From Spirochaetia bacterium (GTDB taxonomy: Bacteria > Spirochaetota > Spirochaetia > CAKZLE01), in the NCBI GenBank assembly GCA_963677595.1, contig OY782041.1, positions 224,001 through 288,000 on the forward strand: a stretch of DNA of 64,000 bases, given 5' to 3'. The position numbers and the translations under genes were made by a program. Position 1 is the stretch's first letter, and the number at the start of each line of letters is the position of its first letter. This document shows positions 39,729-54,600 of the stretch, piece by piece. The notes under the pieces were generated by a model that was not told the origin of the DNA, made no database searches, and worked only from the letters and a program-made list of their open reading frames with translations.

Positions 39729-40142
39729 TTGACTGTTGTGACAGATCTAGGATTACAGAGACTTGAATTCAGTCTCGATCCCAAGAGCGGCGTCCCCTAC
39801 TACAAGCAGGTCATCCTGCAAGTGGAGATGGCTATCGCCGACGGGCGGCTGACCCAGGGGGACCAGCTGCCGACCGTTCGTTCGCTTGCAGTAGACCTGA
39901 GCATCAATCCCAATACCGTCGCACGTGCCTATAACGAGCTTGAGATACGCGGGATCGTGACGACCCAGCAGGGGACCGGGACGTTCATCAGTGACAAGCA
40001 GATCGAACTGACAGCAGTCCAGCGGGAAGAGGTTCTCGCTGAACTCTCGAAATCGTTCGTGTCGAAAGCGAACTCCTACGGGTTCACCATTGATGAACTC
40101 CTGGATTATCTAGAGGAACTCGGCCGCGACGGCAGCCGATAA
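39729..40142 (+). CDS. GntR-family (YtrA-like) regulator
   Basis: 'PYYKQV', 'QLPTVRSLA...INPNTVARAY', 'QGTGTFI', short C-terminal domain. Confidence 0.93.
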   Translation: MTVVTDLGLQRLEFSLDPKSGVPYYKQVILQVEMAIADGRLTQGDQLPTVRSLAVDLSINPNTVARAYNELEIRGIVTTQQGTGTFISDKQIELTAVQREEVLAELSKSFVSKANSYGFTIDELLDYLEELGRDGSR

Positions 40143-40158
40143 GGGAGGATACGAAAAG

Positions 40159-41262
40159 ATGAATTTCTTTGAATCGAAGAATGAGAAGATCAAGAACTTC
40201 AAACCGAAGAAACTGAACAAGGACTACTCATACCATGCATTGTCTCTGCTGGTGCTCGCACTGTTCATCGTTGCGGGCATCGTGGTACAGCTCGGCATCT
40301 ACCCCGACAGCAACACCATGAGTATCGTCGAGATAGCAATCGGGATCCTCTTCGGGGGGATCATCATGTCGCTGCTGCCGGTATGGGTGGTCACCGTCCT
40401 GCTCACCATCGGCCTGTGGGTCTCGTTGATGGCGAACTTCGACCTCTCCTATTCCATCATGGGCCTGGCAGGCTCCCTCGGCTTCCTCGTCTCCTCCTCC
40501 GTGCAGCTGATCTACCAATGGGATAAGGTGGTCATCCTGAGGATGGGAAAGTTCAAGAAGGTCCATGGTCCGGGCCTCTTCTTCCTCATCCCCTTCATCG
40601 ACCGGATCGCCGCCTTCGTCGATACCCGTATCAGGGCGACGGACTTCAGCGCCGAGAAGACCATCACCCGGGACACTGTCCCGGTCCATGTCGATGCCCT
40701 GGCCTTCTGGATGATCTGGGATGCAAAGAAGGCCGTCCTCGAGGTCGAGGATTATGTGGATGCGGTCATCCTCTCAGCCCAGACAGCCCTGCGGGATGCC
40801 ATCGGGCAGAATGACCTGAGCTCCCTGCTCTCCGAGCGGGATGAGCTCGGCAAGAGGATCCAGCAGACGCTCGATAAGAAGACGAACCCCTGGGGAGTCA
40901 CCATCCTCTCGATTGAGATCACCGAGATCATCATCCCGAAGGAGCTGGAGAACGCCATGAGCAAGCAGGCCCAGGCTGAACGGGAGCGGCAGTCGAGGGT
41001 CATCCTCAGTACCGCCGAGGTAGAGATAGCAAAGAAGTTCGAGGAGGCTGCGAAGCGGTATGAGAACAACCCGACCGCCCTGCAGCTGAGATCCATGAAC
41101 ATGGTGTACGAGGGGATCAGGCAGAACAGTACGTTGATGATGCTCCCCTCCTCCGCCCTGGACCAGATGAACCTGGGAGCAGCCTTGGGAACTGCCGCAC
41201 TGCAGAAGTCGCAGCAGCTCGAACAGAAGAACGAGAAAACTAACGAGAAGAAAGAGCAATAA
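40159..41262 (+). CDS. SPFH/stomatin (slipin) family protein
   Basis: 'GPGLFFLIPFID', 'ITRDTVPVHVDA', 'AQTALRDAIG', 'QAQAERERQ'. Confidence 0.92.
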   Translation: MNFFESKNEKIKNFKPKKLNKDYSYHALSLLVLALFIVAGIVVQLGIYPDSNTMSIVEIAIGILFGGIIMSLLPVWVVTVLLTIGLWVSLMANFDLSYSIMGLAGSLGFLVSSSVQLIYQWDKVVILRMGKFKKVHGPGLFFLIPFIDRIAAFVDTRIRATDFSAEKTITRDTVPVHVDALAFWMIWDAKKAVLEVEDYVDAVILSAQTALRDAIGQNDLSSLLSERDELGKRIQQTLDKKTNPWGVTILSIEITEIIIPKELENAMSKQAQAERERQSRVILSTAEVEIAKKFEEAAKRYENNPTALQLRSMNMVYEGIRQNSTLMMLPSSALDQMNLGAALGTAALQKSQQLEQKNEKTNEKKEQ

Positions 41263-41277
41263 GAGGGAGGCAATGCA

Positions 41278-41958
41278 ATGATCAAGATCGACAGCGTGAT
41301 CCGGGACTACCATGCGGGGGAGTCAGTCGTACATGCACTGAGAGGGGTATCGCTCGATATCGAGCAGGGGGAGTTCATCTCCATCGCCGGGCCGTCAGGC
41401 TCAGGGAAGACAACCCTGCTCAACCTGATCGGGTGTATCGACGCCCTTGACGGCGGGGACATCACGATCAACGGGGAGAAGGTATCCACCATGGGGAAGA
41501 AGGAGAAGACCAACTTCAGGAGGATCAACCTTGGGTTCATCTTCCAGACCTACAACCTCATCCCGGTACTCACCGCCTATGAGAACGTCTCGTTCGTCCT
41601 CTCCCTGCTCGATGTACCTGAAGCCGAAGTAAAGAGCAGGACGTTGGGACTGCTGAAGGAGGTCGGGCTCGAGGGGATGGAGTACAGGAGGCCCGACCGG
41701 CTCTCGGGAGGGCAGCAGCAGCGGGTGGCCATCGCCCGCGCGCTCATCAAGCAGCCGGACATCGTGCTGGCGGATGAGCCGACGGCAAACCTCGACTCGA
41801 AGACCGGCGAAGATATCCTGAAACTGATGAAGGAGATGAACCGGAAGCATAATACGACGTTCGTCTTCTCGACCCATGACAGGATGGTCATGGACTACGC
41901 TGACCGGCTGGTCATGCTCCATGACGGACAGATCATGAGTGATGAAAGGAGGCCATGA
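41278..41958 (+). CDS. LolD/MacB-type ABC ATP-binding protein
   Basis: GPSGSGKT, 'LSGGQQQRVAIARA', 'LADEPTANLD'. Confidence 0.93.
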   Translation: MIKIDSVIRDYHAGESVVHALRGVSLDIEQGEFISIAGPSGSGKTTLLNLIGCIDALDGGDITINGEKVSTMGKKEKTNFRRINLGFIFQTYNLIPVLTAYENVSFVLSLLDVPEAEVKSRTLGLLKEVGLEGMEYRRPDRLSGGQQQRVAIARALIKQPDIVLADEPTANLDSKTGEDILKLMKEMNRKHNTTFVFSTHDRMVMDYADRLVMLHDGQIMSDERRP

Positions 41959-43205
41959 TGAAATTCCTCATTTCCCTGGCGTTCAAGAACCTGACCAGGT
42001 ATAAGAGAAGGACCCTCATCACCGCAGGCGCTATCGCTGTCGGCATCATGATGTACATCTTCATAGACGCCATGCTCATGGGGGCTGAATATGAGTCAGT
42101 CAGGAACCTCAAGTGGTATGAGACAGCTTCAGCGAGGATCCTCCATGAGGATTACTGGGACGATCGCTTTCAGTACCCGCTCGATGTCAACATCGAGGAT
42201 CCAGATAAGATCCTAGACCGGCTCGATGAGGCCGGGATCACCGCCACGAAGCGCATCCGCTTCACCGGTGACCTGATCCTCAGCGCTGCTGAGTTCGGGG
42301 AGGACGGGAACATGCCGGTGACCGTCACGGCCATCGACCCGGACCGCGATTATGATGTCTACCATTTCTCCGACACCCTGATCGACGGGCGGTTCCTCGA
42401 ACCGGGAGAGGACGCTGCCGTCCTCGGTTCCTGGTTCGCCGAGGATATAAACGCATCGGTGGGCAACTGGGTAACGGTCGTCACCCGCGGCAACGGGGGG
42501 TTCTATGAGGCGATCGACCTCGAGATCGTCGGTATCGTCAACTGCCCGAACCCGAACGTGAACAGGGCCCTCCTGATGATCCCCATCGATACGGCAGACT
42601 ACTACCTCGCCATGGACGGGGCCGCGACGGAGATCAACATCAAGCTGCCCGACCAGGCAGATGTCGATGCCGAACTGCCGAAGATCCAGGAACTGCTCAA
42701 CGGCGACCACCTTTCCGTCATGAGCTGGGAGGCTATGGCCTTCGACTACCTGGCACTGGCAGAGGCAAAGCGGGGAGGGACGAGCGTCATCCTCCTGCTC
42801 ATCTTCGTGATCGCCGCAGTCGGTATCTCCAATACGATGCTCATGGCTATCTTCGAGCGTATCAGGGAACTCGGCATGATGCGCTCCCTCGGCATGGCTG
42901 ATTCCAAGATCAGGATCGCCTTCATCATCGAGGCAGCCGGGATAGGCATGGTCGGTTCGTTCCTGGGGGTCATCCTCGGCATCCTCGCCGACTACTGGAT
43001 CGTCAACTACGGGATCGACTTCACCTTCATCATGCGGGAGATGGATATCGGGTACAGGATCCAGGGGATCTTCAGGGGAGCCTGGAACCCCGGAACGATC
43101 ATACGGGCGTTCTTCGCCGGGACGATCATCTCGACCTTCGTCGCCATCCTGCCGACGAACCGGGCTCTGCGGATGGATATCCCATCATGCCTGAGACACC
43201 AGTAG
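41955..43205 (+). CDS. LolE/FtsX-like ABC permease
   Basis: 'KNLTRYKRRT', 'NTMLMAIFERIRELG', one TM + large extracytoplasmic domain + three TM. Confidence 0.9.
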   Translation: MMKFLISLAFKNLTRYKRRTLITAGAIAVGIMMYIFIDAMLMGAEYESVRNLKWYETASARILHEDYWDDRFQYPLDVNIEDPDKILDRLDEAGITATKRIRFTGDLILSAAEFGEDGNMPVTVTAIDPDRDYDVYHFSDTLIDGRFLEPGEDAAVLGSWFAEDINASVGNWVTVVTRGNGGFYEAIDLEIVGIVNCPNPNVNRALLMIPIDTADYYLAMDGAATEINIKLPDQADVDAELPKIQELLNGDHLSVMSWEAMAFDYLALAEAKRGGTSVILLLIFVIAAVGISNTMLMAIFERIRELGMMRSLGMADSKIRIAFIIEAAGIGMVGSFLGVILGILADYWIVNYGIDFTFIMREMDIGYRIQGIFRGAWNPGTIIRAFFAGTIISTFVAILPTNRALRMDIPSCLRHQ

Positions 43206-43214
43206 GAGGACCGT

Positions 43215-44453
43215 ATGAACAAGAAACTGATGATGACAGCATTGAAGAACATATCACGGAACAAGCGGAGATCGATCCTCTCAGCCGTGGCGATCGCGGT
43301 CGCGGCCATGAGCATCGTCATGCTCTTCGCCATGATCGCGGGCATGTCGAACGATATGGAGTACAATCTCAAGAACTACTACACCGGGAACATCCAGATC
43401 CAGCATAGGGATTTCGAGGAGTATGAGCGGTACAACCCGGTACACCTGACCGTCGACTGGGATGCGATCGCCCCGGTGCTCGGTTCCATCGACGGTGTCG
43501 AGGCCTATACGCCGAGGATCAACTTCCCCGTGAGTATCTATATCGACGAGGAGACCCATGGAGCGCTCGGGGTCGGCGTCGACCTCGAGCAGGAGGCTGC
43601 CTACAATAAGGATATCGAAGCTATCGTCTACGACGGCAGGCTCCCTGCAGCTGGGCAGAATGAGATCATCATGGGAGGGCTGCTGGCGAACAACCTCGGC
43701 TTAGCGATCGGGGACAGGGTCACCCTGCTCTCCACCACCGCCGCACGGGGGACCAACGCGATCACCGTGGAACTCGTCGGGATCGCCTCCTATCCGGTGA
43801 CCAACATGAACGCATCCACCTTCTGGATGCCGCTCGGCCGGGCCCAGTACTTCCTGAAGATGGACGGAGGGGTCTCTAACATCCTTATCAAGACTGCTGA
43901 GGATGCCAAGGAGAAGGACCTCATCCCCGTGATCGGCGAGGCACTCATGCAGACGACCGGGACGGAGTTCGACATACAGGCATGGACAGACCTCAATGTC
44001 ATGTACGGGTTCCTGAAGATCGCCCAGTACATCTACTACTTCATGGGTGTCTTCTTCTTCCTCCTCGGGAGCACGGTCATCATCAATACCACGATGATGG
44101 TCATTTTCGAGCGTATGCGGGAGATCGGGACCCTGGCAGCGCTCGGGATGCACGGCAAGGAACTGGTACGCCTCTTCCTGCTGGAAGGCATGTTCATCTC
44201 GACGATCGGCTCGTTCTTCGGGGTCACGCTCGGGGTAGTCTTCACCAACATCCTGAGCAGGGTGGGGATAGACTTCACCGATGCCCTCTCCGGCATGGAC
44301 TTCGAGATGTCATCGATCCTCTACCCGGAGGTCAATGTCCCGATCACGATCATCGTATTCTTCTATGCGATCGCCATCGCATCCCTGGCTACGCTGATCC
44401 CGTCCAAGAAGGCTTCACGGATCGAACCGGTTGAAGCGTTGCGTTACATCTAG
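43215..44453 (+). CDS. LolE/FtsX-like ABC permease
   Basis: 'KNISRNKRRS', 'NTTMMVIFERMREIG', 'PVEALR'. Confidence 0.9.
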   Translation: MNKKLMMTALKNISRNKRRSILSAVAIAVAAMSIVMLFAMIAGMSNDMEYNLKNYYTGNIQIQHRDFEEYERYNPVHLTVDWDAIAPVLGSIDGVEAYTPRINFPVSIYIDEETHGALGVGVDLEQEAAYNKDIEAIVYDGRLPAAGQNEIIMGGLLANNLGLAIGDRVTLLSTTAARGTNAITVELVGIASYPVTNMNASTFWMPLGRAQYFLKMDGGVSNILIKTAEDAKEKDLIPVIGEALMQTTGTEFDIQAWTDLNVMYGFLKIAQYIYYFMGVFFFLLGSTVIINTTMMVIFERMREIGTLAALGMHGKELVRLFLLEGMFISTIGSFFGVTLGVVFTNILSRVGIDFTDALSGMDFEMSSILYPEVNVPITIIVFFYAIAIASLATLIPSKKASRIEPVEALRYI

Positions 44454-44465
44454 AGAGGTTACGAA

Positions 44466-45206
44466 ATGAAACGATACAGAATCATGACAAGCATGGTACT
44501 CCTCCTGCTCTCAGTCTCACTCCTGTCTGCCATGACGGCAGAGGAGATCATGCGAAAAGCCGACGAGCTCCAGACCTTCGACAGCTCCTACTCGACCGGG
44601 GAGTTCAGGATCTCAGACCGGTTCGGGACCAAGGTCACGACCTTCAACGCCTGGTCTCGGGGGGCCGAGGAGTCCCTGATCGAGTTCACCAGTGTCGCCG
44701 AACGGGGCCAGAAGGTCCTGAGGACTGATGACTCCATCTACCTCTACTACCCGGATGCTGAGGAACTCATCAGGATGCAGGGCTCAGCCCTGCGCCAGGG
44801 GATGCTCGGGTCCGATATCTCCTACGAGGACATGACCGGCGGGAAGGACCGCCTCTCCCAGTACGACATCGTCCTGAGCGGGGAGGAGGCCCTCCTTGGG
44901 AGGGACTGCTACGTCCTGACCTTGACGGCAAAGACCAGGTCCGTCCCCTACCCCAAGGAGATCGTCTGGATCTCCAAGGACAACTACCTCGTTATGAAGG
45001 GGGAGTACTACACGAAATCAGGGAGGCTGCTCAAGGAGCTTGAGGTCCTTGAGACCGGCACCTTCGACGGGCTCGAGGTGGCCGTGGAGACGAGGATCTC
45101 GGACAAGATGAAGACCGATACCGAGACGATCATGGTCCTTGAGAGCCTTGATCTCGATGCGCGGGTCGATGATGATATCTTCTCGCTCGAAGAACTCTCC
45201 TGGTAG
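44466..45206 (+). CDS. LolA-like outer membrane lipoprotein-sorting protein
   Basis: Signal peptide, 'GQKVLR...YLYYP', 'GSDISYEDM', 'GRLLKEL'. Confidence 0.82.
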   Translation: MKRYRIMTSMVLLLLSVSLLSAMTAEEIMRKADELQTFDSSYSTGEFRISDRFGTKVTTFNAWSRGAEESLIEFTSVAERGQKVLRTDDSIYLYYPDAEELIRMQGSALRQGMLGSDISYEDMTGGKDRLSQYDIVLSGEEALLGRDCYVLTLTAKTRSVPYPKEIVWISKDNYLVMKGEYYTKSGRLLKELEVLETGTFDGLEVAVETRISDKMKTDTETIMVLESLDLDARVDDDIFSLEELSW

Positions 45207-45215
45207 GAGTACCGT

Positions 45216-46352
45216 ATGAAGAAGTTCCTGACCATAGTACTTGCCCTGCTGGTCGCGATTCCTGCGGCTGTGTATGCAGACGGGACCCTCACCATGGACT
45301 ACTCGCTGTTCGAGACCGTCCTGCGGACTATCGATACCGCAGGAGACGTCTCCTGGCTTACCACCCCTGCCGGGAGTGCGGAGCTGTCCTACAGTTCGAC
45401 CGGCAACAGGAACGTGAAGAGTGAGGTCGCCCTCTCGATCGTCATGCCTGACATCTCCACTGCGGACTTCGGACTGCCCAAGGACCTCTCCTTCGCCCTG
45501 GTCTCCCTCGACAAGGCCTACGTCAAAGCCCGGTTCCCCGAGTTCAGGCTCACGGCGGGGAAGACCCGCCTCAGCTGGGGGGACGGGTTCGTCTTCAACG
45601 CCGGGGACATCCTCTTCGACAGCCTGAGCACCGCAGTGGACCTGACCTCGAGTGAAGTCAGGAGTGACACAGACTGGCTGGTCTCGGTGAATGTCCCCCT
45701 GGGACGGTTCTCCTTCGCCGAGGCGGTCCTCCTTCCGCCGGACGATATGGATCTCGGGCACCTCTCAGCAGGAGGGAGGCTCTATACCACCATCGAGAGC
45801 CTGAAACTCGAGACCGGCTACATGTTCACCTATGATGCTGCCCAGACAGGTTATGAGCACCGCCTGTCCTTGGGACTGCAGGGGAATCTCGAGGCTGACT
45901 GGTACCTCTCGGGTGCCGTGAGCCTTCCCGGCCCCGGCTATGATACGGCCGGGACCCTCTTCGAGGACTCCCTCGATATTACCGCAGGGCTCTTCTACAT
46001 CCACCAGATTGACTCGGTACGAACGCTCACCCTGGGGCTCGAGTCACTGATCCAGCCCTATGAGAGCTGGGCAGAGAGTGCCGGGGGGAAGGACTACGGT
46101 ATCTTCCTCTATCCCGAGATCGGTTTCACCCCGAATGACACCGTATCGCTCTCCCTGCGGTCGATCTATTCCCCGATCGACGGATCAGCACAGGTCACCG
46201 CGGGCGGGTCCTGGAATGTGTTTCAGGGGTTCTCCCTCCTGGGGTACCTCATCGGGCAAGTCGGGGATGATGACGACCTCTTCTCCTGGGGGAATACCGA
46301 TCCCGGCTGGACATCCCTGACCTGCATGGTCGGGGTCAACTATATCTACTGA
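45216..46352 (+). CDS. Hypothetical exported protein, likely outer-membrane beta-barrel
   Basis: Signal peptide, 'LDKAYV...LTAGKTRLSWGDG', alternating strands, terminal aromatic residue. Confidence 0.7.
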   Translation: MKKFLTIVLALLVAIPAAVYADGTLTMDYSLFETVLRTIDTAGDVSWLTTPAGSAELSYSSTGNRNVKSEVALSIVMPDISTADFGLPKDLSFALVSLDKAYVKARFPEFRLTAGKTRLSWGDGFVFNAGDILFDSLSTAVDLTSSEVRSDTDWLVSVNVPLGRFSFAEAVLLPPDDMDLGHLSAGGRLYTTIESLKLETGYMFTYDAAQTGYEHRLSLGLQGNLEADWYLSGAVSLPGPGYDTAGTLFEDSLDITAGLFYIHQIDSVRTLTLGLESLIQPYESWAESAGGKDYGIFLYPEIGFTPNDTVSLSLRSIYSPIDGSAQVTAGGSWNVFQGFSLLGYLIGQVGDDDDLFSWGNTDPGWTSLTCMVGVNYIY

Positions 46353-47743: not shown

Positions 47744-47772
47744 TTGTCTCCAAGCCCGCACTACGTTACAAT
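47744..47772 (+). promoter_or_regulatory. Candidate sigma70 promoter for the riboswitch-led operon
   Basis: TTGTCT-17-TACAAT ending a few nt before the riboswitch P1. Confidence 0.65.
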
Positions 47773-47777
47773 GAGTG

Positions 47778-47878
47778 CGTACTTCCGAGTCAGCAAGTCC
47801 TACGGCCCCTGCTATGGACTGCGACCGTTAGAGGTCACCTGGGAAACTGGTGCCCTTCCCGTATTTGGAAAGGAAGCG
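47778..47878 (+). ncRNA. Moco RNA motif riboswitch (P3-less, Tuco-like variant)
   Basis: P1 CTTCC/GGAAG; P2 GTC-GC-AGTCC/GGACT-GC-GAC with a CCTACG...TATGG receptor; P4 GAGG-CACC..GAAA..GGTG-CCTT; 3' signature CCCGTATTTGGAAAGGA overlapping the RBS. Confidence 0.85.
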
Positions 47879-49363
47879 ATGTTTGGTAGAAGAACTCTCT
47901 CTTGCGGTATCATGATCCTGTGCTGTGTGGTCTTCCCGCTGTCCGGTCTCGAAGTCAGCGTGAACGGAAAGCCATACCAGTCCTTGCATGATACTGAACT
48001 CACAGAACTCATCTCACCCCTCCCCGCCGGGCTGGTCTCTTCGGAGTCCTCTTTGGGTATTGCTGTGTCACAGCTCATCCCCGTGATGTTCGAGGCATGG
48101 CGGATCACCATTGACGGGGTTGTTATATCGGACGACAGCCTGGCAGAACGGCTTGAGCACTCCTACCTCTTCCGGGATGCCGGGGTATGGTCCATTCAGC
48201 TCGATGACGGTCTTATATTCCAGAACACTGAGAGCTTATCGGTCGAGGGGGAAGAACTCCTCGATGATGAGCTAGAGATATGGGTCAGCTGGGAGGGCGA
48301 GGATGAGCTGAGAACCGAGATCTCAGCCTTCGCGGACCGCAATGGTATCGAGGTCACGGTGCTCCATATCCCGAACCCGGAATCCCGCCTGGTCTCCGTT
48401 CTCAGGGGTGGGGGGAACCCTCCCGACCTTATCATGTGCTCTCCCGGGAATCTCTACAGCCTCGTCGAGTCAGGGGCCCTGCAGCCCCTTCCTGCATACC
48501 TCTCGACGGGCCTGGGCCGACAGGGGCTTGACACCTTCTCCTACCAGGGAAAGCAATGGGCCCTTCCGTTCTACTATGACACTCAGCTTCTGATCTACAA
48601 CCCGGAACTCATAGACCTGCCGGGAGGATCGAGTCTCACCCTTTCCGACCTGGAGCGGGCAGTCGCTGCGCTTGTCGGGACTGTCCCGGTCCCCATGAGC
48701 TGGAATGCCTACTCCTCCTATTGGCTGATGCCCTTCCAGGCAAGCTTCGGGAAGGCGCGCCTCACCGAACCGGACGGGTCGATCATCCTTGACGATGCCC
48801 AGACTGAGGCAGCCCTCTCCTACATCGTGAAGCTCGCGCAGCAGGAATACTTCACGCCGCTCGAGCGTGATGCCATGATCTCGTTCTTCGCCTCAGGCCG
48901 TGCCGGGGTGATCTACTCGGCTTCCTACTCGATCCCCTACTTCCAGGAACTTAGGATCCCGTTCGCCGTAGCCCCGGCACTGGTCAATGACCGGACAGGC
49001 TTGCCTGTCTCCCCCATGCTCGATTACAAGGCGATCGGCCTCACCCGGCAGTCAAAGCACCCGGTCCTCGCATACCGGCTGCTCTCCTACCTCATGGGAA
49101 TCGAGGTCCAGACCCGTTTCAACCAGCAGCTCTTCAAGCTCCCGGCCAACACCTATGCACAGCAGCTGCTTGAGGAGAGCACTGCCTACTACCGGACCAT
49201 AACCGACCAGGCTTCCCACGGCCAGACAGTACCGTCGACGGCATCCTATGCAGCCTACAAGAACATCATGTGGAAGCTGCTGAGGTTCGCCCTCTCCGGG
49301 CAGCTGAGCCCTTCCGCAGTCCTGGAACAGGGAGAGCGATTACTGAAGGAGACACTGCCGTAG
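47879..49363 (+). CDS. Extracellular solute-binding protein (sugar-type) with an extra N-terminal domain
   Basis: Signal peptide; 'PPDLIM', 'QWALPFYYDTQLLIYNPELI', 'FFASGRAG'; about 120 extra residues before the SBP domain. Confidence 0.85.
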   Translation: MFGRRTLSCGIMILCCVVFPLSGLEVSVNGKPYQSLHDTELTELISPLPAGLVSSESSLGIAVSQLIPVMFEAWRITIDGVVISDDSLAERLEHSYLFRDAGVWSIQLDDGLIFQNTESLSVEGEELLDDELEIWVSWEGEDELRTEISAFADRNGIEVTVLHIPNPESRLVSVLRGGGNPPDLIMCSPGNLYSLVESGALQPLPAYLSTGLGRQGLDTFSYQGKQWALPFYYDTQLLIYNPELIDLPGGSSLTLSDLERAVAALVGTVPVPMSWNAYSSYWLMPFQASFGKARLTEPDGSIILDDAQTEAALSYIVKLAQQEYFTPLERDAMISFFASGRAGVIYSASYSIPYFQELRIPFAVAPALVNDRTGLPVSPMLDYKAIGLTRQSKHPVLAYRLLSYLMGIEVQTRFNQQLFKLPANTYAQQLLEESTAYYRTITDQASHGQTVPSTASYAAYKNIMWKLLRFALSGQLSPSAVLEQGERLLKETLP

Positions 49364-49408: not shown

Positions 49409-50791
49409 ATGAACAAGAGATTCTTAGGCGTTCTTTTACTGATGCTGGGCATCCTGCTGCTGGCAGGCTGCACCACCACCGAAAGCGGGACTTCCGTCGA
49501 GGTGACAGCAGAGACTGAAGTCGATGCAGTCGCCCATGCGACACCGGCAGGTGAAGGGTGGCATGTGACCCTCACAGGGGTCCGGACGGACGAGCTGTGG
49601 GAATCACAGGCAGCTGCAGATCCCAAATGGCTGGAGACTGTCCAGTTCGAGAAGAAGGGGGAGCTGAGGACCTATACGGCCCTCGCCTTCTCGGAAGTGA
49701 TCGCCATGATCGACGATGCGGACGGGTCCATGCCCTATAGCTTCCAGCAGGGGGCTTGGGATGCAGGTTATGACATCACCGTGACCGCCGCGGACGGGTT
49801 TGCCGCGACCTTCAACACGGCTGACTACCCGGCAGAAGGGATCTACCTCGCAGTGACTCAGGACGGGGAGAGCACCCTCCCCATGCTCGTCGGCGATATC
49901 CCGGGGCAGATCCAGGTCAAGGACATCGTCTCCATCGAGACCTCACTCGCACCGGTGGCGCTCGAGGAGAACCAGTTCGAGTTCATCCTCGAGATCGGGG
50001 ATAAGACAGCGACCTTCACCCTTGCCGAGCTCGAGGATCATCCCTACTTCATCGAAGGTCCCGGGGAGTACAAGAACACCTATGACAACGTCTTCACCCA
50101 CGTCTGGGGCGGGGTCAAGCTCGTGGACCTCATCAGCGACGTGTTCCCGCTCACGGCTGACCAGAGTGTGACCATCATCGCCACTGACGGCTACGAGATG
50201 GACTACAGCGGGTCACAGCTGCTTGACCAGGCAGACGGGACCTGGATCCTCGCATTCATCGAAGACGGGGAGTATATGCCGGAAGACCCGGGATACATCC
50301 GCCTGGTGAAGGTCGGCCCCGACACACCCCAGATCACCGGTCACATCTCTGCACGTATGGTGAAGAAGGTGCAGATCAAGGATGTCTCCTTCACTGACTT
50401 CACCCTCTCCATCGACAGCGCTGCAGGGACCGAGGAGCTCGACCGGCAGACGATCCAGAGCGGCGTGACTTCACAGAGAACGACCGTGAACTACTTCAAC
50501 AAGAAGAGCGGGGAGACTGTCAGCTACCTGGGTCTTCCCCTGTTCGAATTCCTTGCACACTATGACGGCTACGACACGGTCACCGTCGAAGCTTCGGACA
50601 GGTACTCGATCACCCTCGCTGCAGATGAGGTAGCCGGGAACAGCGATGTCATCCTGGCCATGTACTACGGTGACGGGAGTGAGCTCTCTGAGAATGAAGC
50701 CCCCCTCATCATCGTATGGGATGCCGAAGCTGACCTCGTGCCTGCCGGCATCAAGGCAGTCAGGAGCGTGACCCGCCTCATCCTGGACTGA
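49409..50791 (+). CDS. Lipoprotein with three molybdopterin-binding oxidoreductase-like repeats
   Basis: Lipobox LAGC; repeated motifs WGGVKL/YLGLPL, AxDG[YF], LA..DG, V[KR]xV; no Cys in the mature protein. Confidence 0.78.
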   Translation: MNKRFLGVLLLMLGILLLAGCTTTESGTSVEVTAETEVDAVAHATPAGEGWHVTLTGVRTDELWESQAAADPKWLETVQFEKKGELRTYTALAFSEVIAMIDDADGSMPYSFQQGAWDAGYDITVTAADGFAATFNTADYPAEGIYLAVTQDGESTLPMLVGDIPGQIQVKDIVSIETSLAPVALEENQFEFILEIGDKTATFTLAELEDHPYFIEGPGEYKNTYDNVFTHVWGGVKLVDLISDVFPLTADQSVTIIATDGYEMDYSGSQLLDQADGTWILAFIEDGEYMPEDPGYIRLVKVGPDTPQITGHISARMVKKVQIKDVSFTDFTLSIDSAAGTEELDRQTIQSGVTSQRTTVNYFNKKSGETVSYLGLPLFEFLAHYDGYDTVTVEASDRYSITLAADEVAGNSDVILAMYYGDGSELSENEAPLIIVWDAEADLVPAGIKAVRSVTRLILD

Positions 50792-50793
50792 CC

Positions 50794-52794
50794 ATGAGGA
50801 TACGACCATCGCTTCACACCAGGTGGCAGCTGCTGCTTCCGGCGGCGCTCATCGTCGCAGCTGCAGGAGTCGCCCCGTTCGCTGAAGCGGTGGTCACCTC
50901 ATTCTTCCACGACATCTACGGGCAGAGAAGCCCCGCAGGGTTCGACAACTACCGGTACCTCCTCTCAGACCGGGGCTTCTCCTACAGTCTCAGGATCAGT
51001 CTGGTCTGGGCACTAGGGAACACGGTCCTGGGGTTAGGAACTTCCCTCCTGCTGGCCTGGCGGATCTTCATGCGGGGAAGGAGGGGCAAGCTCCTCTACC
51101 TCTCCCTGGTCATCCCCTGGGCAGTCCCCGTCTATATCGCCGTCCCGGTCTGGAGGTCCTTCTTCCATGGGGACGGGGGCACCTCGCTCTTCTCCACGCT
51201 CACGGGGATCCATATAAACCTGCTCACCGACCCGATTGCGGCATTCTGCTCGACACTGTGGGTAAGCGTCTGGCTTTCGGTCCCCTTTACCGGGTTCGTC
51301 CTCCTGAGCAGCCTCAAGCGCATCCCCGGGAGCCTCAGGGAAGCCGCCATGATCGACGGGGCAGACAGCAGGCAGGTCCTGCAGTATGTCTACCTGCCGC
51401 AGATCAGGAATGCGATCGCCGTCATGTCGGTGCTGAACGTCATCAAGTTCCTGAAGGAGTTCAATGTCATCTTCCTCATGACCTCGGGCGGCCCGCCGCT
51501 GGTCTCGGGGATCACTGACCGGTTCATCATCGGGGCAACGACCACCCTCGATGTCCTGGTCTACGAGATCTTCCAGACCCGGGAGGATATAGGGATCTCA
51601 TCAGCCTATGCCGTGCTCCTCGCGGGGGTGGTCATCCTTATCATGCTCCTCTGGCTGCGGGCCCGGAAGGGGAACAGCTCACGGATCCTGCCGGCAGTGC
51701 TCACCGGTCTCGCGCAGGTACCCTTTTCCGGCATCCCGGGCATCATCCTTGCTGTTCTTTATCCGGTCAGCGGGATCGTTTCCAGGAAGGCCTTCAGGCT
51801 TACGCTCATCCTGCACGCGGGACTGACCTGCTTCATGGTCATCTCCAGGGGATTCCTGGAAGGCTTCTCCCCGGGGTTCCCCCTCGCCCTGCTGGTGTAC
51901 CTGATCATCTTCTCGAAAGACGGGGCAGCTTCCCGCCCGGTGAGGACCCCACAGGGCTTCTCACGGACTGCCACCAGACTGTTCACCCTGACCACGCTGG
52001 TCCTCTCCTGTCTGTTCATCATCGCGGCCCTGCTCATGGTGTTCATCGTCATCTGGCTGAGCTTCTCCGGCCTCGGCAGCAGCTACATAGACTCGCTCAT
52101 TCCCCCCTTCCCGACGGTTACCAACTATGTGAAGATCATCGTGGATGAGGGGATCCTCAGGCACTTCCTCAACACCCTGCTGCTCTCAGGCTCCACTGCC
52201 CTACTGCTTCCCCTCATCATCATGCCTGCTGCCTACTACCTGCTGCACCGGGGGAACAGGACCGCCTTCGGCGTCATGACCTTTCTCCAGATCCTCGGGC
52301 TCTATGGCGGTATGCACTCCCTCATCCCGCTCTACTCATTCTTCCGGCGGCTTCACTTGATCGACTCGTACATCCCGCTCGTCATGATCTACCTCAACCA
52401 CGCGATCCCCTCTGCCTTGTTCACGACGCTCGCCTATATGGAGAAGATCCCTGCTTCCTTCGAGGACCAGGCGCGCCTCGAGGGGGTAAGCGCGTTCCAG
52501 TACCTTCGGCTGATCCTCTTCCCGGTCAGTCTCCCGATCATCGGGGTGAACATGGTCCTGGCATTCATCGCAGCATGGAACGGGTTCATGGCTCCCCTGC
52601 TCTTCCTCAACACGGAGGGCAGCTTCCCCATCAGCGTCAAGCTCTTCTCCCTCGTGGGAAATCTCGCGTCAGGCTTCCCGAAGTGGAATCTCTTCGCCGC
52701 TGCATCGCTCATCAACTGCCTGATCCTCTCAGTGCTCCTCCACCGGGTACGTAAACCGATCAATGACAGCAGTCTGCAGTCCATCATGGAATGA
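50794..52794 (+). CDS. Fused double ABC permease (MalF-like + MalG-like)
   Basis: Two EAA loops 'LREAAMIDGA' and 'FEDQARLEG' in one 666-aa ORF. Confidence 0.88.
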   Translation: MRIRPSLHTRWQLLLPAALIVAAAGVAPFAEAVVTSFFHDIYGQRSPAGFDNYRYLLSDRGFSYSLRISLVWALGNTVLGLGTSLLLAWRIFMRGRRGKLLYLSLVIPWAVPVYIAVPVWRSFFHGDGGTSLFSTLTGIHINLLTDPIAAFCSTLWVSVWLSVPFTGFVLLSSLKRIPGSLREAAMIDGADSRQVLQYVYLPQIRNAIAVMSVLNVIKFLKEFNVIFLMTSGGPPLVSGITDRFIIGATTTLDVLVYEIFQTREDIGISSAYAVLLAGVVILIMLLWLRARKGNSSRILPAVLTGLAQVPFSGIPGIILAVLYPVSGIVSRKAFRLTLILHAGLTCFMVISRGFLEGFSPGFPLALLVYLIIFSKDGAASRPVRTPQGFSRTATRLFTLTTLVLSCLFIIAALLMVFIVIWLSFSGLGSSYIDSLIPPFPTVTNYVKIIVDEGILRHFLNTLLLSGSTALLLPLIIMPAAYYLLHRGNRTAFGVMTFLQILGLYGGMHSLIPLYSFFRRLHLIDSYIPLVMIYLNHAIPSALFTTLAYMEKIPASFEDQARLEGVSAFQYLRLILFPVSLPIIGVNMVLAFIAAWNGFMAPLLFLNTEGSFPISVKLFSLVGNLASGFPKWNLFAAASLINCLILSVLLHRVRKPINDSSLQSIME

Positions 52795-53456: not shown

Positions 53457-54206
53457 ATGACTATGAGAAAGAAAGGAAGATTCTACCAGACACGATTCAC
53501 CTGGTACCAGGGACTGAGGCTGCTGTTCCAGCTGCTCTACCTCACAGCGACCGTGTTCGCCATAGTCGGCAAGGACTTCATCGTCGCGATTGCCCTTATG
53601 GCGATCGCCCTGATCGGCGGGGCATGGTTCTGCGGCTGGCTCTGCCCCTTCGGGATGGTGCAGGAATGGTTGGGGAGGCTCGGCAACCGGCTGTTCCGGT
53701 TCAAGCTCACGATCCCGCAGAAGGCGGAGAAGTACCTGAGGCTGCTTCGGTATCTCCTGCTGGCCGCCGGGACAGCAGGGCTGATGGCCCTGGGATTCCT
53801 CAGTGCCCCCTATAACACCTTCATCAGTTCGATCAGCGGCGTCGCCGCATCGATCACGGTGACTGCCTGGGTACTGCTAGGACTCTTCCTGGCAGCTTCC
53901 CTGGTCATAGACCGCCCGTTCTGCAGGTACTTCTGCACTGAAGGGGCACGATACGGGGTGCTTAGCCTGGGCAGGCTCTTCACCATACGCAGGAATGAAG
54001 AGAGCTGTGTCAGCTGCGGGATCTGTGACAGGGCCTGCCCGACACAGGTAGTGATATCGACGAAGAGGCAGGTACGGAATGCACAGTGTATCAACTGCAT
54101 GGAGTGCATCGCATCCTGCCCGAAACCGGGAACCCTCACCTACGGGTTCGCATTCACGAGAAAGAAGAAGGGACAAGGAGAAGATACAGATGAGAAAGAT
54201 GAGTAA
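53457..54206 (+). CDS. Membrane 4Fe-4S binding protein (NapH-like)
   Basis: 'FCGWLCPFG', 'RPFCRYFC', 'CVSCGICDRACP', 'CINCMECIASCP'. Confidence 0.9.
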   Translation: MTMRKKGRFYQTRFTWYQGLRLLFQLLYLTATVFAIVGKDFIVAIALMAIALIGGAWFCGWLCPFGMVQEWLGRLGNRLFRFKLTIPQKAEKYLRLLRYLLLAAGTAGLMALGFLSAPYNTFISSISGVAASITVTAWVLLGLFLAASLVIDRPFCRYFCTEGARYGVLSLGRLFTIRRNEESCVSCGICDRACPTQVVISTKRQVRNAQCINCMECIASCPKPGTLTYGFAFTRKKKGQGEDTDEKDE

Positions 54207-54600
54207 GGTTTCATTGGCAGTCACGATACTGCTTGTAGCGGGGATCACCATGCTGTTTAGCTCAGCACGGTTCTTCGGGCACGCATCATATGCGGAAGTG
54301 CTCGGGATCAATGTGACTGAACAGTCCTATACTGACGGTATCTACACTGGTACTGCCGACGGGTTCCGCCCCGGTATTGTGGTGGAAGTAGCGATCGAGG
54401 AGAGCTCGGTAGCATCGGTAACGGTTACCGAACACCACGAGATCGGCCCGATGTACTGGAGCAGGCCTGTATCACTGATCCCGGCAAGCGTGGTAGAGCA
54501 GCAGAGTACTGCAGTGGACACGATCTCAGGGGCAACAGCCACCAGCAAGGGAATCCTTGCCGCCGTGGAGGATGCCCTGGGCAAGGCCCAGGTGCAGTAG
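54190..54600 (+). CDS. FMN-binding domain protein (flavinylation substrate)
   Basis: N-terminal anchor, 'YTDGIYTGTADGF', 'VDTISGATATS'. Confidence 0.88.
   Translation: MRKMSKVSLAVTILLVAGITMLFSSARFFGHASYAEVLGINVTEQSYTDGIYTGTADGFRPGIVVEVAIEESSVASVTVTEHHEIGPMYWSRPVSLIPASVVEQQSTAVDTISGATATSKGILAAVEDALGKAQVQ

What the first reader, a model, noticed from the sequence alone, without database searches (positions are those of the whole stretch)
49409..50791. Lipoprotein of three non-catalytic molybdopterin-binding-like repeats
Seen: three units of about 130 aa sharing motifs (YTALAF/WGGVKL/YLGLPL; TAADGF/IATDGY/EASDRY; IYLA/WILA/VILA followed by DG; QVKDI/MVKKV/AVRSV). The only Cys is the lipobox Cys. 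Established: sulfite oxidase/MsrP enzymes ligate Mo through a Cys. Inference: a multivalent cofactor-capture or protective carrier rather than an enzyme. The extra N-terminal domain of the upstream binding protein ('SLGIAVSQLI...FQNTESLSV') may be a fourth, degenerate copy.
Basis: partly seen in the sequence, partly recalled or inferred. Interest (0 to 1): 0.7.

Follow-up and report, generated by a model that had tools for sequence, protein, structure and literature searches.

The report
Candidate molybdenum/tungsten cofactor import system
This lipoprotein of three pterin-binding-type domains is the middle gene of a conserved spirochaete ABC transporter that lies behind a molybdenum/tungsten-cofactor riboswitch, and it likely helps import the ready-made cofactor, because many carriers keep the enzymes that need it but lack the genes to make it.

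Summary
ORF 49409-50791 is a 460-aa lipoprotein with one Cys (C21, lipobox) and three homologous repeats of the sulfite-oxidase/PruR fold (hhalign 82-99%; Z 15.8 to PruR). It is the middle gene of a cassette (MalE-like binding protein, this gene, fused MalF/G-like permease) that is intact in 69 of 80 loci. A P3-lacking Moco/Tuco riboswitch (RF01055, 53.7 bits) overlaps the first gene's ribosome site; 18 of 23 homologous loci scanned have one.

In 401 Spirochaetia genomes, 37 of 38 carriers encode AOR-family enzymes, against 84 of 363 non-carriers. Among AOR genomes, 16 of 37 carriers show no moaC, moeA or tupA, while 7 of 84 non-carriers show no moaC or moeA. All 4 such carriers checked keep xanthine-oxidase-family genes.

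Best reading (0.7): an importer of metal-loaded molybdopterin/tungstopterin, with the lipoprotein as the capture subunit. Binding and transport are inferred, not shown. The window's own genome can make the cofactor, and its repeat 1 has lost two family residues. I found no such bacterial importer in ten paper searches. This scan noted the same idea on two other genomes.

The parts
47771..47891 (+). Moco/Tuco riboswitch aptamer (Rfam RF01055), P3 stem missing; overlaps the ribosome site and start codon of the first gene
   Evidence: cmscan 53.7 bits, gathering score 36, E 1.5e-11; the third stem is gaps in the alignment; AAGGA at 47870-47874 and ATG at 47879
47879..49363 (+). Secreted solute-binding protein, MalE-like fold, with an extra N-terminal domain
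   Evidence: Pfam SBP_bac_8 and SBP_bac_1; best PDB match Thermotoga MalE, E 1.5e-38; model pLDDT 94.7 and Foldseek
47945..48262 (+). N-terminal domain of the binding protein; probably a degenerate fourth repeat without the pterin-site motif
   Evidence: hhalign 46.8%, E 2e-4; controls 0.7% or less; similar order of strands and helices
49409..50791 (+). Lipoprotein, 460 aa, three sulfite-oxidase/PruR-fold repeats, no Mo-ligating Cys
49409..49549 (+). Signal peptide, lipobox (C21) and disordered linker with DAVAHAT, a degenerate form of a family motif D-x-x-[ST]-x-A-[ST]
   Evidence: sequence; pLDDT under 50 at residues 20-44; motif in 64 of 91 homologs
49550..49954 (+). Repeat 1 (residues 48-182); the family has D129-G-Y131 and W169, this protein has F131 and Q169
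   Evidence: D 90/91, Y 86/91, W 83/91
49967..50389 (+). Repeat 2 (residues 187-327), the most conserved; D260-G-Y262 aligns to the PruR pterin-site N-D-Y
   Evidence: D260, Y262, R298, S314 in 91/91; alignment to 7kom and 7kos
50390..50788 (+). Repeat 3 (residues 328-460); A395-x-D397 invariant, F or Y at 399
50794..52794 (+). Fused two-module ABC permease (MalF-like plus MalG-like); no ATPase gene in the cassette
   Evidence: Pfam BPD_transp_1 twice; NCBIfam MalF E 1e-19 and MalG E 5e-18, both below cut-off

Best explanation
The three genes likely form a riboswitch-controlled ABC importer for the ready-made, metal-loaded molybdopterin/tungstopterin cofactor, with the three-repeat lipoprotein as its predicted capture subunit. 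Inferred steps: (1) when cofactor is low the aptamer is empty, the ribosome site is free and the operon is made; (2) the membrane-anchored lipoprotein binds cofactor released by neighbouring cells in its sulfite-oxidase-type pockets, stacking the pterin on the conserved Tyr without fixing the metal, as it has no Cys; (3) it passes the cofactor to the MalE-like protein, possibly docking on that protein's degenerate fourth repeat; (4) the fused permease, driven by an ATPase encoded elsewhere, carries it in; (5) it matures AOR, xanthine-oxidase-family and DMSO-reductase-family enzymes, so that moaC, moeA and tupA become dispensable. Shown: the fold, the cassette, the riboswitch match and the co-occurrence. 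Not shown: any binding, hand-over or transport.
For: Fold equals PruR, a proven pterin binder of the Cys-less SUOX type, and the pterin-stacking Tyr aligns. The cassette is intact in 69 of 80 loci, and 10 of the other 11 are cut by contig ends. RF01055 lies at the first gene in the window and in 18 of 23 cassette loci scanned, including 2 Thermotogae loci. The P3-lacking form goes with tungsten-cofactor genes (PMC2408646, passages). In G062, G153 and G135 the only riboswitch found is the one before this cassette. 37 of 38 carriers have AOR against 84 of 363 others, and 0 of 227 genomes with neither AOR nor moeA carry it. Among AOR genomes, no moaC or MoeA was found in 16 of 37 carriers (10 families) against 7 of 84 non-carriers, at equal mean completeness (93.8 vs 93.0); the 240 genomes added later gave 4 of 10 against 3 of 53. 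tupA was found in 0 of those 16 against 16 of the other 21. G401, with a 3.29-Mb chromosome record, has the cassette, an intact AOR and 6 xanthine-oxidase-family genes but no moaC or MoeA. Distant tandem-repeat relatives sit directly before wtpA in 3 of 3 loci examined.
Against: No binding or transport data. 21 of 37 carriers, including this genome, keep moeA or moaC, so the system is not simply a replacement. 7 of 84 non-carriers also lack the pathway, and 4 of them were checked and have no copy of the binding protein, so assembly gaps or another route exist. Most genomes are draft assemblies of 90-97% completeness, the moa genes are clustered, and kin are not independent, so the p-values overstate. 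Three of four single-chromosome carriers first scored as moeA-less proved to have moaC; the one inspected has a modABC-moaA-moaC operon with a short MoeA-like gene. This protein's repeat 1 has F131 and Q169 in place of the family Tyr and Trp. G401 and L014 show no riboswitch. The binding protein's nearest solved relatives bind maltodextrins. PruR's own pocket is reported as too short for Moco, and I could not measure pocket size here. How an oxygen-labile cofactor crosses the outer membrane is unexplained.
Confidence: 0.7

Rival explanations
1. It imports a metal-free precursor (molybdopterin or cPMP), and the cell finishes the cofactor itself.
For: The lipoprotein has no metal-ligating Cys, and PruR binds metal-free pterins. 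ThiF/MoeB-like genes lie beside the cassette in 4 of 80 loci.
Against: The 16 pathway-less carriers show neither form of MoeA nor tupA, so by known chemistry they could not insert the metal.
Confidence: 0.09
2. It is a new tungstate/molybdate (or polyoxometal) importer, with the repeats acting as a metal sponge.
For: Moco riboswitches also control metal transporters, including tupA in this genome. Distant relatives lie next to wtpAB. tupA is missing in many carriers.
Against: Metal alone is useless to genomes without moaC and moeA. The binding protein is MalE-like, not ModA/TupA/WtpA-like. The conserved residues are those of a pterin site.
Confidence: 0.08
3. The lipoprotein is a redox partner or unusual enzyme: a flavin on the N-terminal linker keeps a bound pterin reduced or turns over a substrate that the transporter then imports.
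For: D-x-x-[ST]-x-A-[ST] in 64 of 91 homologs; apbE is in the genome and near the cassette in L013; a Cys-His motif occurs in about half of the distant units.
Against: The strict ApbE motif D-x-x-[ST]-G-A-[ST] (PMC12052999, passages) is in only 5 of 91, and not in this protein. No Cys, no Tat signal and no conserved redox partner gene. This role is compatible with the import model as an add-on.
Confidence: 0.07
4. An ordinary sugar ABC transporter or a PruR-like pterin signalling module; the cofactor link is incidental.
For: MalE, MalF and MalG are the nearest described relatives; PruR has the same fold.
Against: Conserved Moco riboswitch; 37 of 38 co-occurrence with AOR; no recurrent sugar-catabolic or DcpA-like neighbour among those annotated.
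Confidence: 0.04

Closest known systems
PruR periplasmic pterin-binding proteins (PDB 7kom, 7kos, 7kp2, 7rkb; PMC11194511)
   Same: SUOX-type fold without the Mo-ligating Cys; exported; pterin-stacking Tyr aligned.
   Different: Three copies on a lipid anchor rather than one ~150-aa domain; Asp for Asn102; no PW motif; partner is an ABC transporter rather than DcpA; riboswitch control.
Sulfite oxidase family enzymes (SorA, MsrP/YedY, chicken SO)
   Same: Moco-binding fold, Z 11.8-15.8; Pfam PF00174 above cut-off.
   Different: No catalytic Cys, no Tat signal, no cytochrome partner gene; tandem repeats.
Riboswitch-controlled cofactor ABC importers (BtuCDF for B12, ThiBPQ for thiamine; recalled, not from a call)
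   Same: Cofactor-sensing RNA before a binding protein and permease; carriers often lack the biosynthesis pathway.
   Different: Cofactor class with no importer that I found described; MalEFG-like parts; an extra multi-pocket lipoprotein; no ATPase in the operon.
Moco RNA motif, P3-lacking 'Tuco' class (RF01055; PMC2408646)
   Same: Full-length match above the gathering score with P3 absent.
   Different: In the passages I read it is linked to biosynthesis, metal transport and enzymes. The paper notes two such RNAs before 'putative sulphite oxidases' in S. wolfei as exceptions; these may be relatives of this family (not tested).
Dietary uptake of protein-bound Moco by C. elegans (10.1101/2020.10.08.332338; search listing and abstract start only)
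   Same: Shows that Moco can move between organisms when bound to protein.
   Different: Animal host; no bacterial importer is involved.

Membership tests
Sulfite oxidase family enzyme (MsrP/SorA) | SUOX Moco-binding fold | tested here: met
Sulfite oxidase family enzyme (MsrP/SorA) | Mo-ligating Cys | tested here: not met
   only Cys is the lipobox C21
Sulfite oxidase family enzyme (MsrP/SorA) | Tat export and a haem partner gene (feature recalled) | tested here: not met
   no twin-arginine motif in the signal; conserved neighbours are a binding protein and a permease
PruR | Cys-less SUOX fold, exported | tested here: met
   Z 15.8 and 15.7 for R2 and R3
PruR | Pterin site Asn102/Tyr104/Trp160 | tested here: inconclusive
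   Tyr aligned in R2, with Asp for Asn; a Trp near the end of R1 in 83/91 homologs but Gln here, and its equivalence to W160 is inferred
PruR | PW motif replacing the Cys; single ~150-170-aa domain | tested here: not met
   no PW at the aligned place; three domains, 460 aa
PruR | Operon with a DcpA-type sensor | tested here: not met
   downstream gene is a permease in the loci that reach it, except L052
PruR | Binds a pterin | not testable with these tools
   needs purified protein
Moco/Tuco riboswitch (RF01055) | Score above the gathering threshold, upstream of the gene | tested here: met
   53.7 against 36 bits
Moco/Tuco riboswitch (RF01055) | P3 stem absent (Tuco class) | tested here: met
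   cmscan alignment; class defined in PMC2408646
Moco/Tuco riboswitch (RF01055) | Cofactor-dependent repression | not testable with these tools
   needs a reporter assay
MalEFG-type sugar ABC importer | MalE-type binding fold and two MalF/G-type permease modules | tested here: met
   (NCBIfam scores below cut-offs)
MalEFG-type sugar ABC importer | Sugar substrate | not testable with these tools
   context argues against it
ModABC/TupABC/WtpABC oxyanion importers | ModA/TupA/WtpA-type binding protein | tested here: not met
   only SBP_bac_8/1 and MalE/GanS models match
ApbE flavinylation substrate | D-x-x-[ST]-G-A-[ST] motif | tested here: not met
   window has DAVAHAT; strict motif in 5 of 91, relaxed form in 64 of 91

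The most novel reading that the evidence does not exclude
Anaerobic spirochaetes cross-feed on intact molybdenum and tungsten cofactors through a dedicated importer whose multi-pocket lipoprotein catches and shields the labile cofactor. The hundreds of archaeal- and bacterial-type surface proteins with 2-10 such repeats are cofactor sponges of the same trade, and this explains genomes that carry molybdo- and tungstoenzymes with no cofactor pathway.
Probability: 0.55. Interest if true: 0.92.

Novelty: new variant of a known kind. Interest (0 to 1): 0.8.

Why it matters
A comparative survey states that Mo uptake and Moco biosynthesis are essential in all Moco users, and leaves 'orphan molybdoprotein-containing organisms' without pathway or transporter to possible sequencing gaps (PMC6147048, passages). 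A 2026 review says it is unknown how pterins cross bacterial membranes (PMC13259868, passages). This cassette names three genes and one RNA that make both questions testable in E. coli. If true, Moco and its tungsten analogue join B12 and thiamine as cofactors shared in anaerobic communities. A protein that holds and delivers the cofactor could also help to produce tungsten enzymes and to supply Moco.

Tried and rejected
A single-sequence PDB search found nothing; the profile gave only E 0.092 to PruR. Mob_synth_C (PF06463) was a poor moaA marker, missing this genome's own short moaA, and was dropped. PF12849 mixes TupA with weaker paralogs and was replaced by a TupA protein query. PF13531 hits many unrelated binding proteins; only G402-G404 and G000 scored strongly, G198 moderately. 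MoeA_N alone overcounted pathway loss: G198 and G402-G404 have moaC, so G198 was removed (17 became 16) and three chromosome-level examples were dropped. G044 lacks moaC but has a MoeA_N hit and was counted as pathway-positive. For the 53 AOR non-carriers added later, moaC was tested only in the 3 without moeA. Neighbours outside the three genes are not conserved; the downstream 4Fe-4S and FMN-binding genes occur in only 2 of 80 loci. Minimum-energy folding of the riboswitch gave z 0.27 and adds no support. Promoter and terminator matches were near chance. The ESM Atlas had no hit for the binding protein's N-domain. Complex prediction of lipoprotein with binding protein was not available, nor was the wide structural search, so the contact is untested and the fourth copy has no 3D check. 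Only 7 close loci of one distant relative were retrieved, so the wider family's context is thinly sampled. Expression was not examined. Ten paper searches showed no description of this cassette or of a bacterial Moco importer; the library lacks most subscription papers, and I read no supplements (the PruR Dataset S1 and the riboswitch Fig. S4 may list relatives).

Full report
Observation. The ORF at 49409-50791 encodes 460 residues with a lipobox Cys21 and no other Cys. Pfam Oxidored_molyb passes its cut-off on residues 224-327. A search returned 96 proteins including the query, and 91 were aligned (five partial ones were left out). Profiles of the three thirds match each other at 98.7%, 96.4% and 81.7%. 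The model (pLDDT 88.6) matches sulfite dehydrogenases, PruR and YedY. PruR aligns to repeat 2 at Z 15.8 and to repeat 3 at Z 15.7, far above unrelated rows at Z under 6. The repeats are real.

Pockets. PruR binds its pterin between Tyr104 and Trp160, with Asn102, has Trp in place of the Mo-ligating Cys, and has a pocket judged too short for Moco (PMC11194511, parts 2-4 of 8 read). In repeat 2, M-D-G-Y aligns with PruR L-N-D-Y, and D260, Y262, R298 and S314 are invariant in 91 of 91. All three repeats keep A-x-D-G-Y/F in the family. Repeat 1 also has a Trp near its end in 83 of 91, but this protein has Phe131 and Gln169, so its first pocket may be decayed. The wider family is large: 796 representatives at E 0.001 or better, many with 2-10 tandem units plus SLH, PKD or Ig domains. 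328 of 444 units keep the motif, and 126 of 260 sampled units carry a Cys that this protein lacks.

Cassette. In 80 genomic loci, nearly all titled as spirochaetes, with 2 Thermotogae and 1 Bacteroidales, the order binding protein - lipoprotein - fused permease is intact in 69; 10 others are cut by contig ends and L052 lacks the downstream permease. No ATPase gene belongs to it; three full-length ABC ATPase hits lie elsewhere in the genome, role unknown. The binding protein is MalE-like, and its extra N-domain probably is a worn fourth repeat (46.8%, controls 0.7% or less). Other neighbours vary. An AOR gene lies within 8 kb in 3 of 80 loci and a ThiF/MoeB-like gene in 4 of 80. In G153 (the same stretch as L064) the cassette diverges from an AOR-NuoEFG-like-MoeB operon.

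Distribution. I searched 161 and then 401 Spirochaetia genomes of at least 90% completeness. 38 of 401 carry the lipoprotein, 121 carry a full AOR domain and 150 a MoeA_N domain. 37 of 38 carriers have AOR against 84 of 363 non-carriers; the exception, G040, has the gene in two pieces. None of 227 genomes lacking both AOR and moeA carries it. Among AOR genomes, moeA was missing in 17 of 37 carriers and 7 of 84 others. Checking showed that the Pfam model misses a short MoeA-like gene: G198 and G402-G404 have moaC, and the G198 and G403 regions hold a mod-moa operon. After correction, 16 of 37 carriers from 10 families show no moaC, no MoeA of either form and no tupA, against 7 of 84 non-carriers without moaC and MoeA (Fisher p 2e-5, overstated by kinship; completeness 93.8 against 93.0). 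The later-added genomes alone give 4 of 10 against 3 of 53. The remaining weak hits to the MoeA-like query, in 410-460-aa frames, are probably CinA (inference). No moaA-level hit was found in the 5 genomes tested. The AORs of G062, G401 and G153 are full length with the C-x-x-C-x-x-x-C, E-Y/F-E-T and R-G-G/A-C-H motifs (motif meaning recalled). 4 of 4 pathway-less genomes tested keep 4-6 xanthine-oxidase-family hits, and 3 of 4 have DMSO-reductase-family hits. The window's genome has 9 AOR-domain hits, moaA, moaC, moeA and tupABC, so here import would only supplement synthesis.

Riboswitch. I had reached the import idea from the distribution (note). An earlier scan note on another genome then pointed to a riboswitch, and I tested it here. 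RF01055 matches 47771-47891 at 53.7 bits, with P3 missing, and covers the ribosome site and ATG of the first gene. It was found in 13 of 17 and 5 of 6 cassette loci scanned, 23 of the 80 in all; three misses begin inside the first gene, and L009 and L014 are true misses. P3-lacking forms go with tungsten-cofactor genes (PMC2408646, passages). This genome has three copies: here, before tupA, and before a second ABC operon. In G062, G153 and G135 the single copy found precedes the cassette; G401 has none. Distant relatives lie directly before wtpA in 3 of 3 loci examined out of 7 retrieved, one of them behind the same riboswitch.

Mechanism and rivals. Four lines point one way: a pterin-type pocket, fixed linkage to an importer, a cofactor-sensing RNA, and loss of the whole pathway with the enzymes kept. 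Loss of MoeA and tupA argues for metal-loaded cofactor rather than precursor or oxyanion. Against it stand the lack of any binding data, draft genomes, 7 unexplained non-carriers, 21 carriers that keep the pathway, and the unknown route through the outer membrane. A flavin on the linker is possible (relaxed motif in 64 of 91, apbE present), but the strict motif is absent here. I put import of finished cofactor at 0.7.

Novelty. It is not a sulfite oxidase and not a PruR by membership test; it works like a B12- or thiamine-type cofactor importer (recalled comparison). Ten searches showed no description of it. PMC6147048 (passages) leaves orphan molybdoprotein genomes unexplained; PMC7759655 and PMC13328260 (passages) had no passage on cofactor uptake for the terms searched. 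The scan reached the same idea on two other genomes; those notes are not independent evidence.

Noticed in passing
G000:C1:3998682-4003305: A third Moco/Tuco riboswitch precedes a small exported protein, a FecCD/BtuC-like permease, an ATPase and a binding protein, with a small gene on the opposite strand (identities judged by eye from the translations). It could be a second cofactor or metal importer; L087 has a BtuCDF-like trio beside its tandem-repeat gene.
   Followed up: partly
window 49523-49543: Linker motif DAVAHAT; family form D-x-x-[ST]-x-A-[ST] in 64 of 91, strict ApbE motif in 5 of 91.
   Followed up: partly
window 53457-54600: A 4Fe-4S membrane protein (Fer4_5) followed by an FMN_bind protein carrying DTISGAT; looks like a flavin-based electron-transfer pair; beside the cassette in only 2 of 80 loci.
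   Followed up: no
proteins P0100-P0245: Surface proteins of up to 3139 aa with 2-10 of these repeats and SLH, PKD or Ig domains; about half of the units have a conserved Cys, mostly Cys-His.
   Followed up: partly
P0102-P0104, L052, L072: Longer forms of about 620 aa carry an extra, weakly matching N-terminal repeat; the two Thermotogae loci also have the riboswitch.
   Followed up: partly
G040:C14:3637-4581: The only carrier without an AOR has the lipoprotein gene in two pieces.
   Followed up: no
L094:8472-11854, L095:9875-14441: A short MoeA-like gene (about 345 aa, MoCF_biosynth only) in mod-moa operons escapes Pfam MoeA_N and can fake pathway loss.
   Followed up: yes
window 39729-46352: GntR-like regulator, SPFH protein, ABC ATPase, two LolE-type permeases, a sorting-type protein and a secreted protein; a separate exporter-like cluster, judged mostly by eye.
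   Followed up: no
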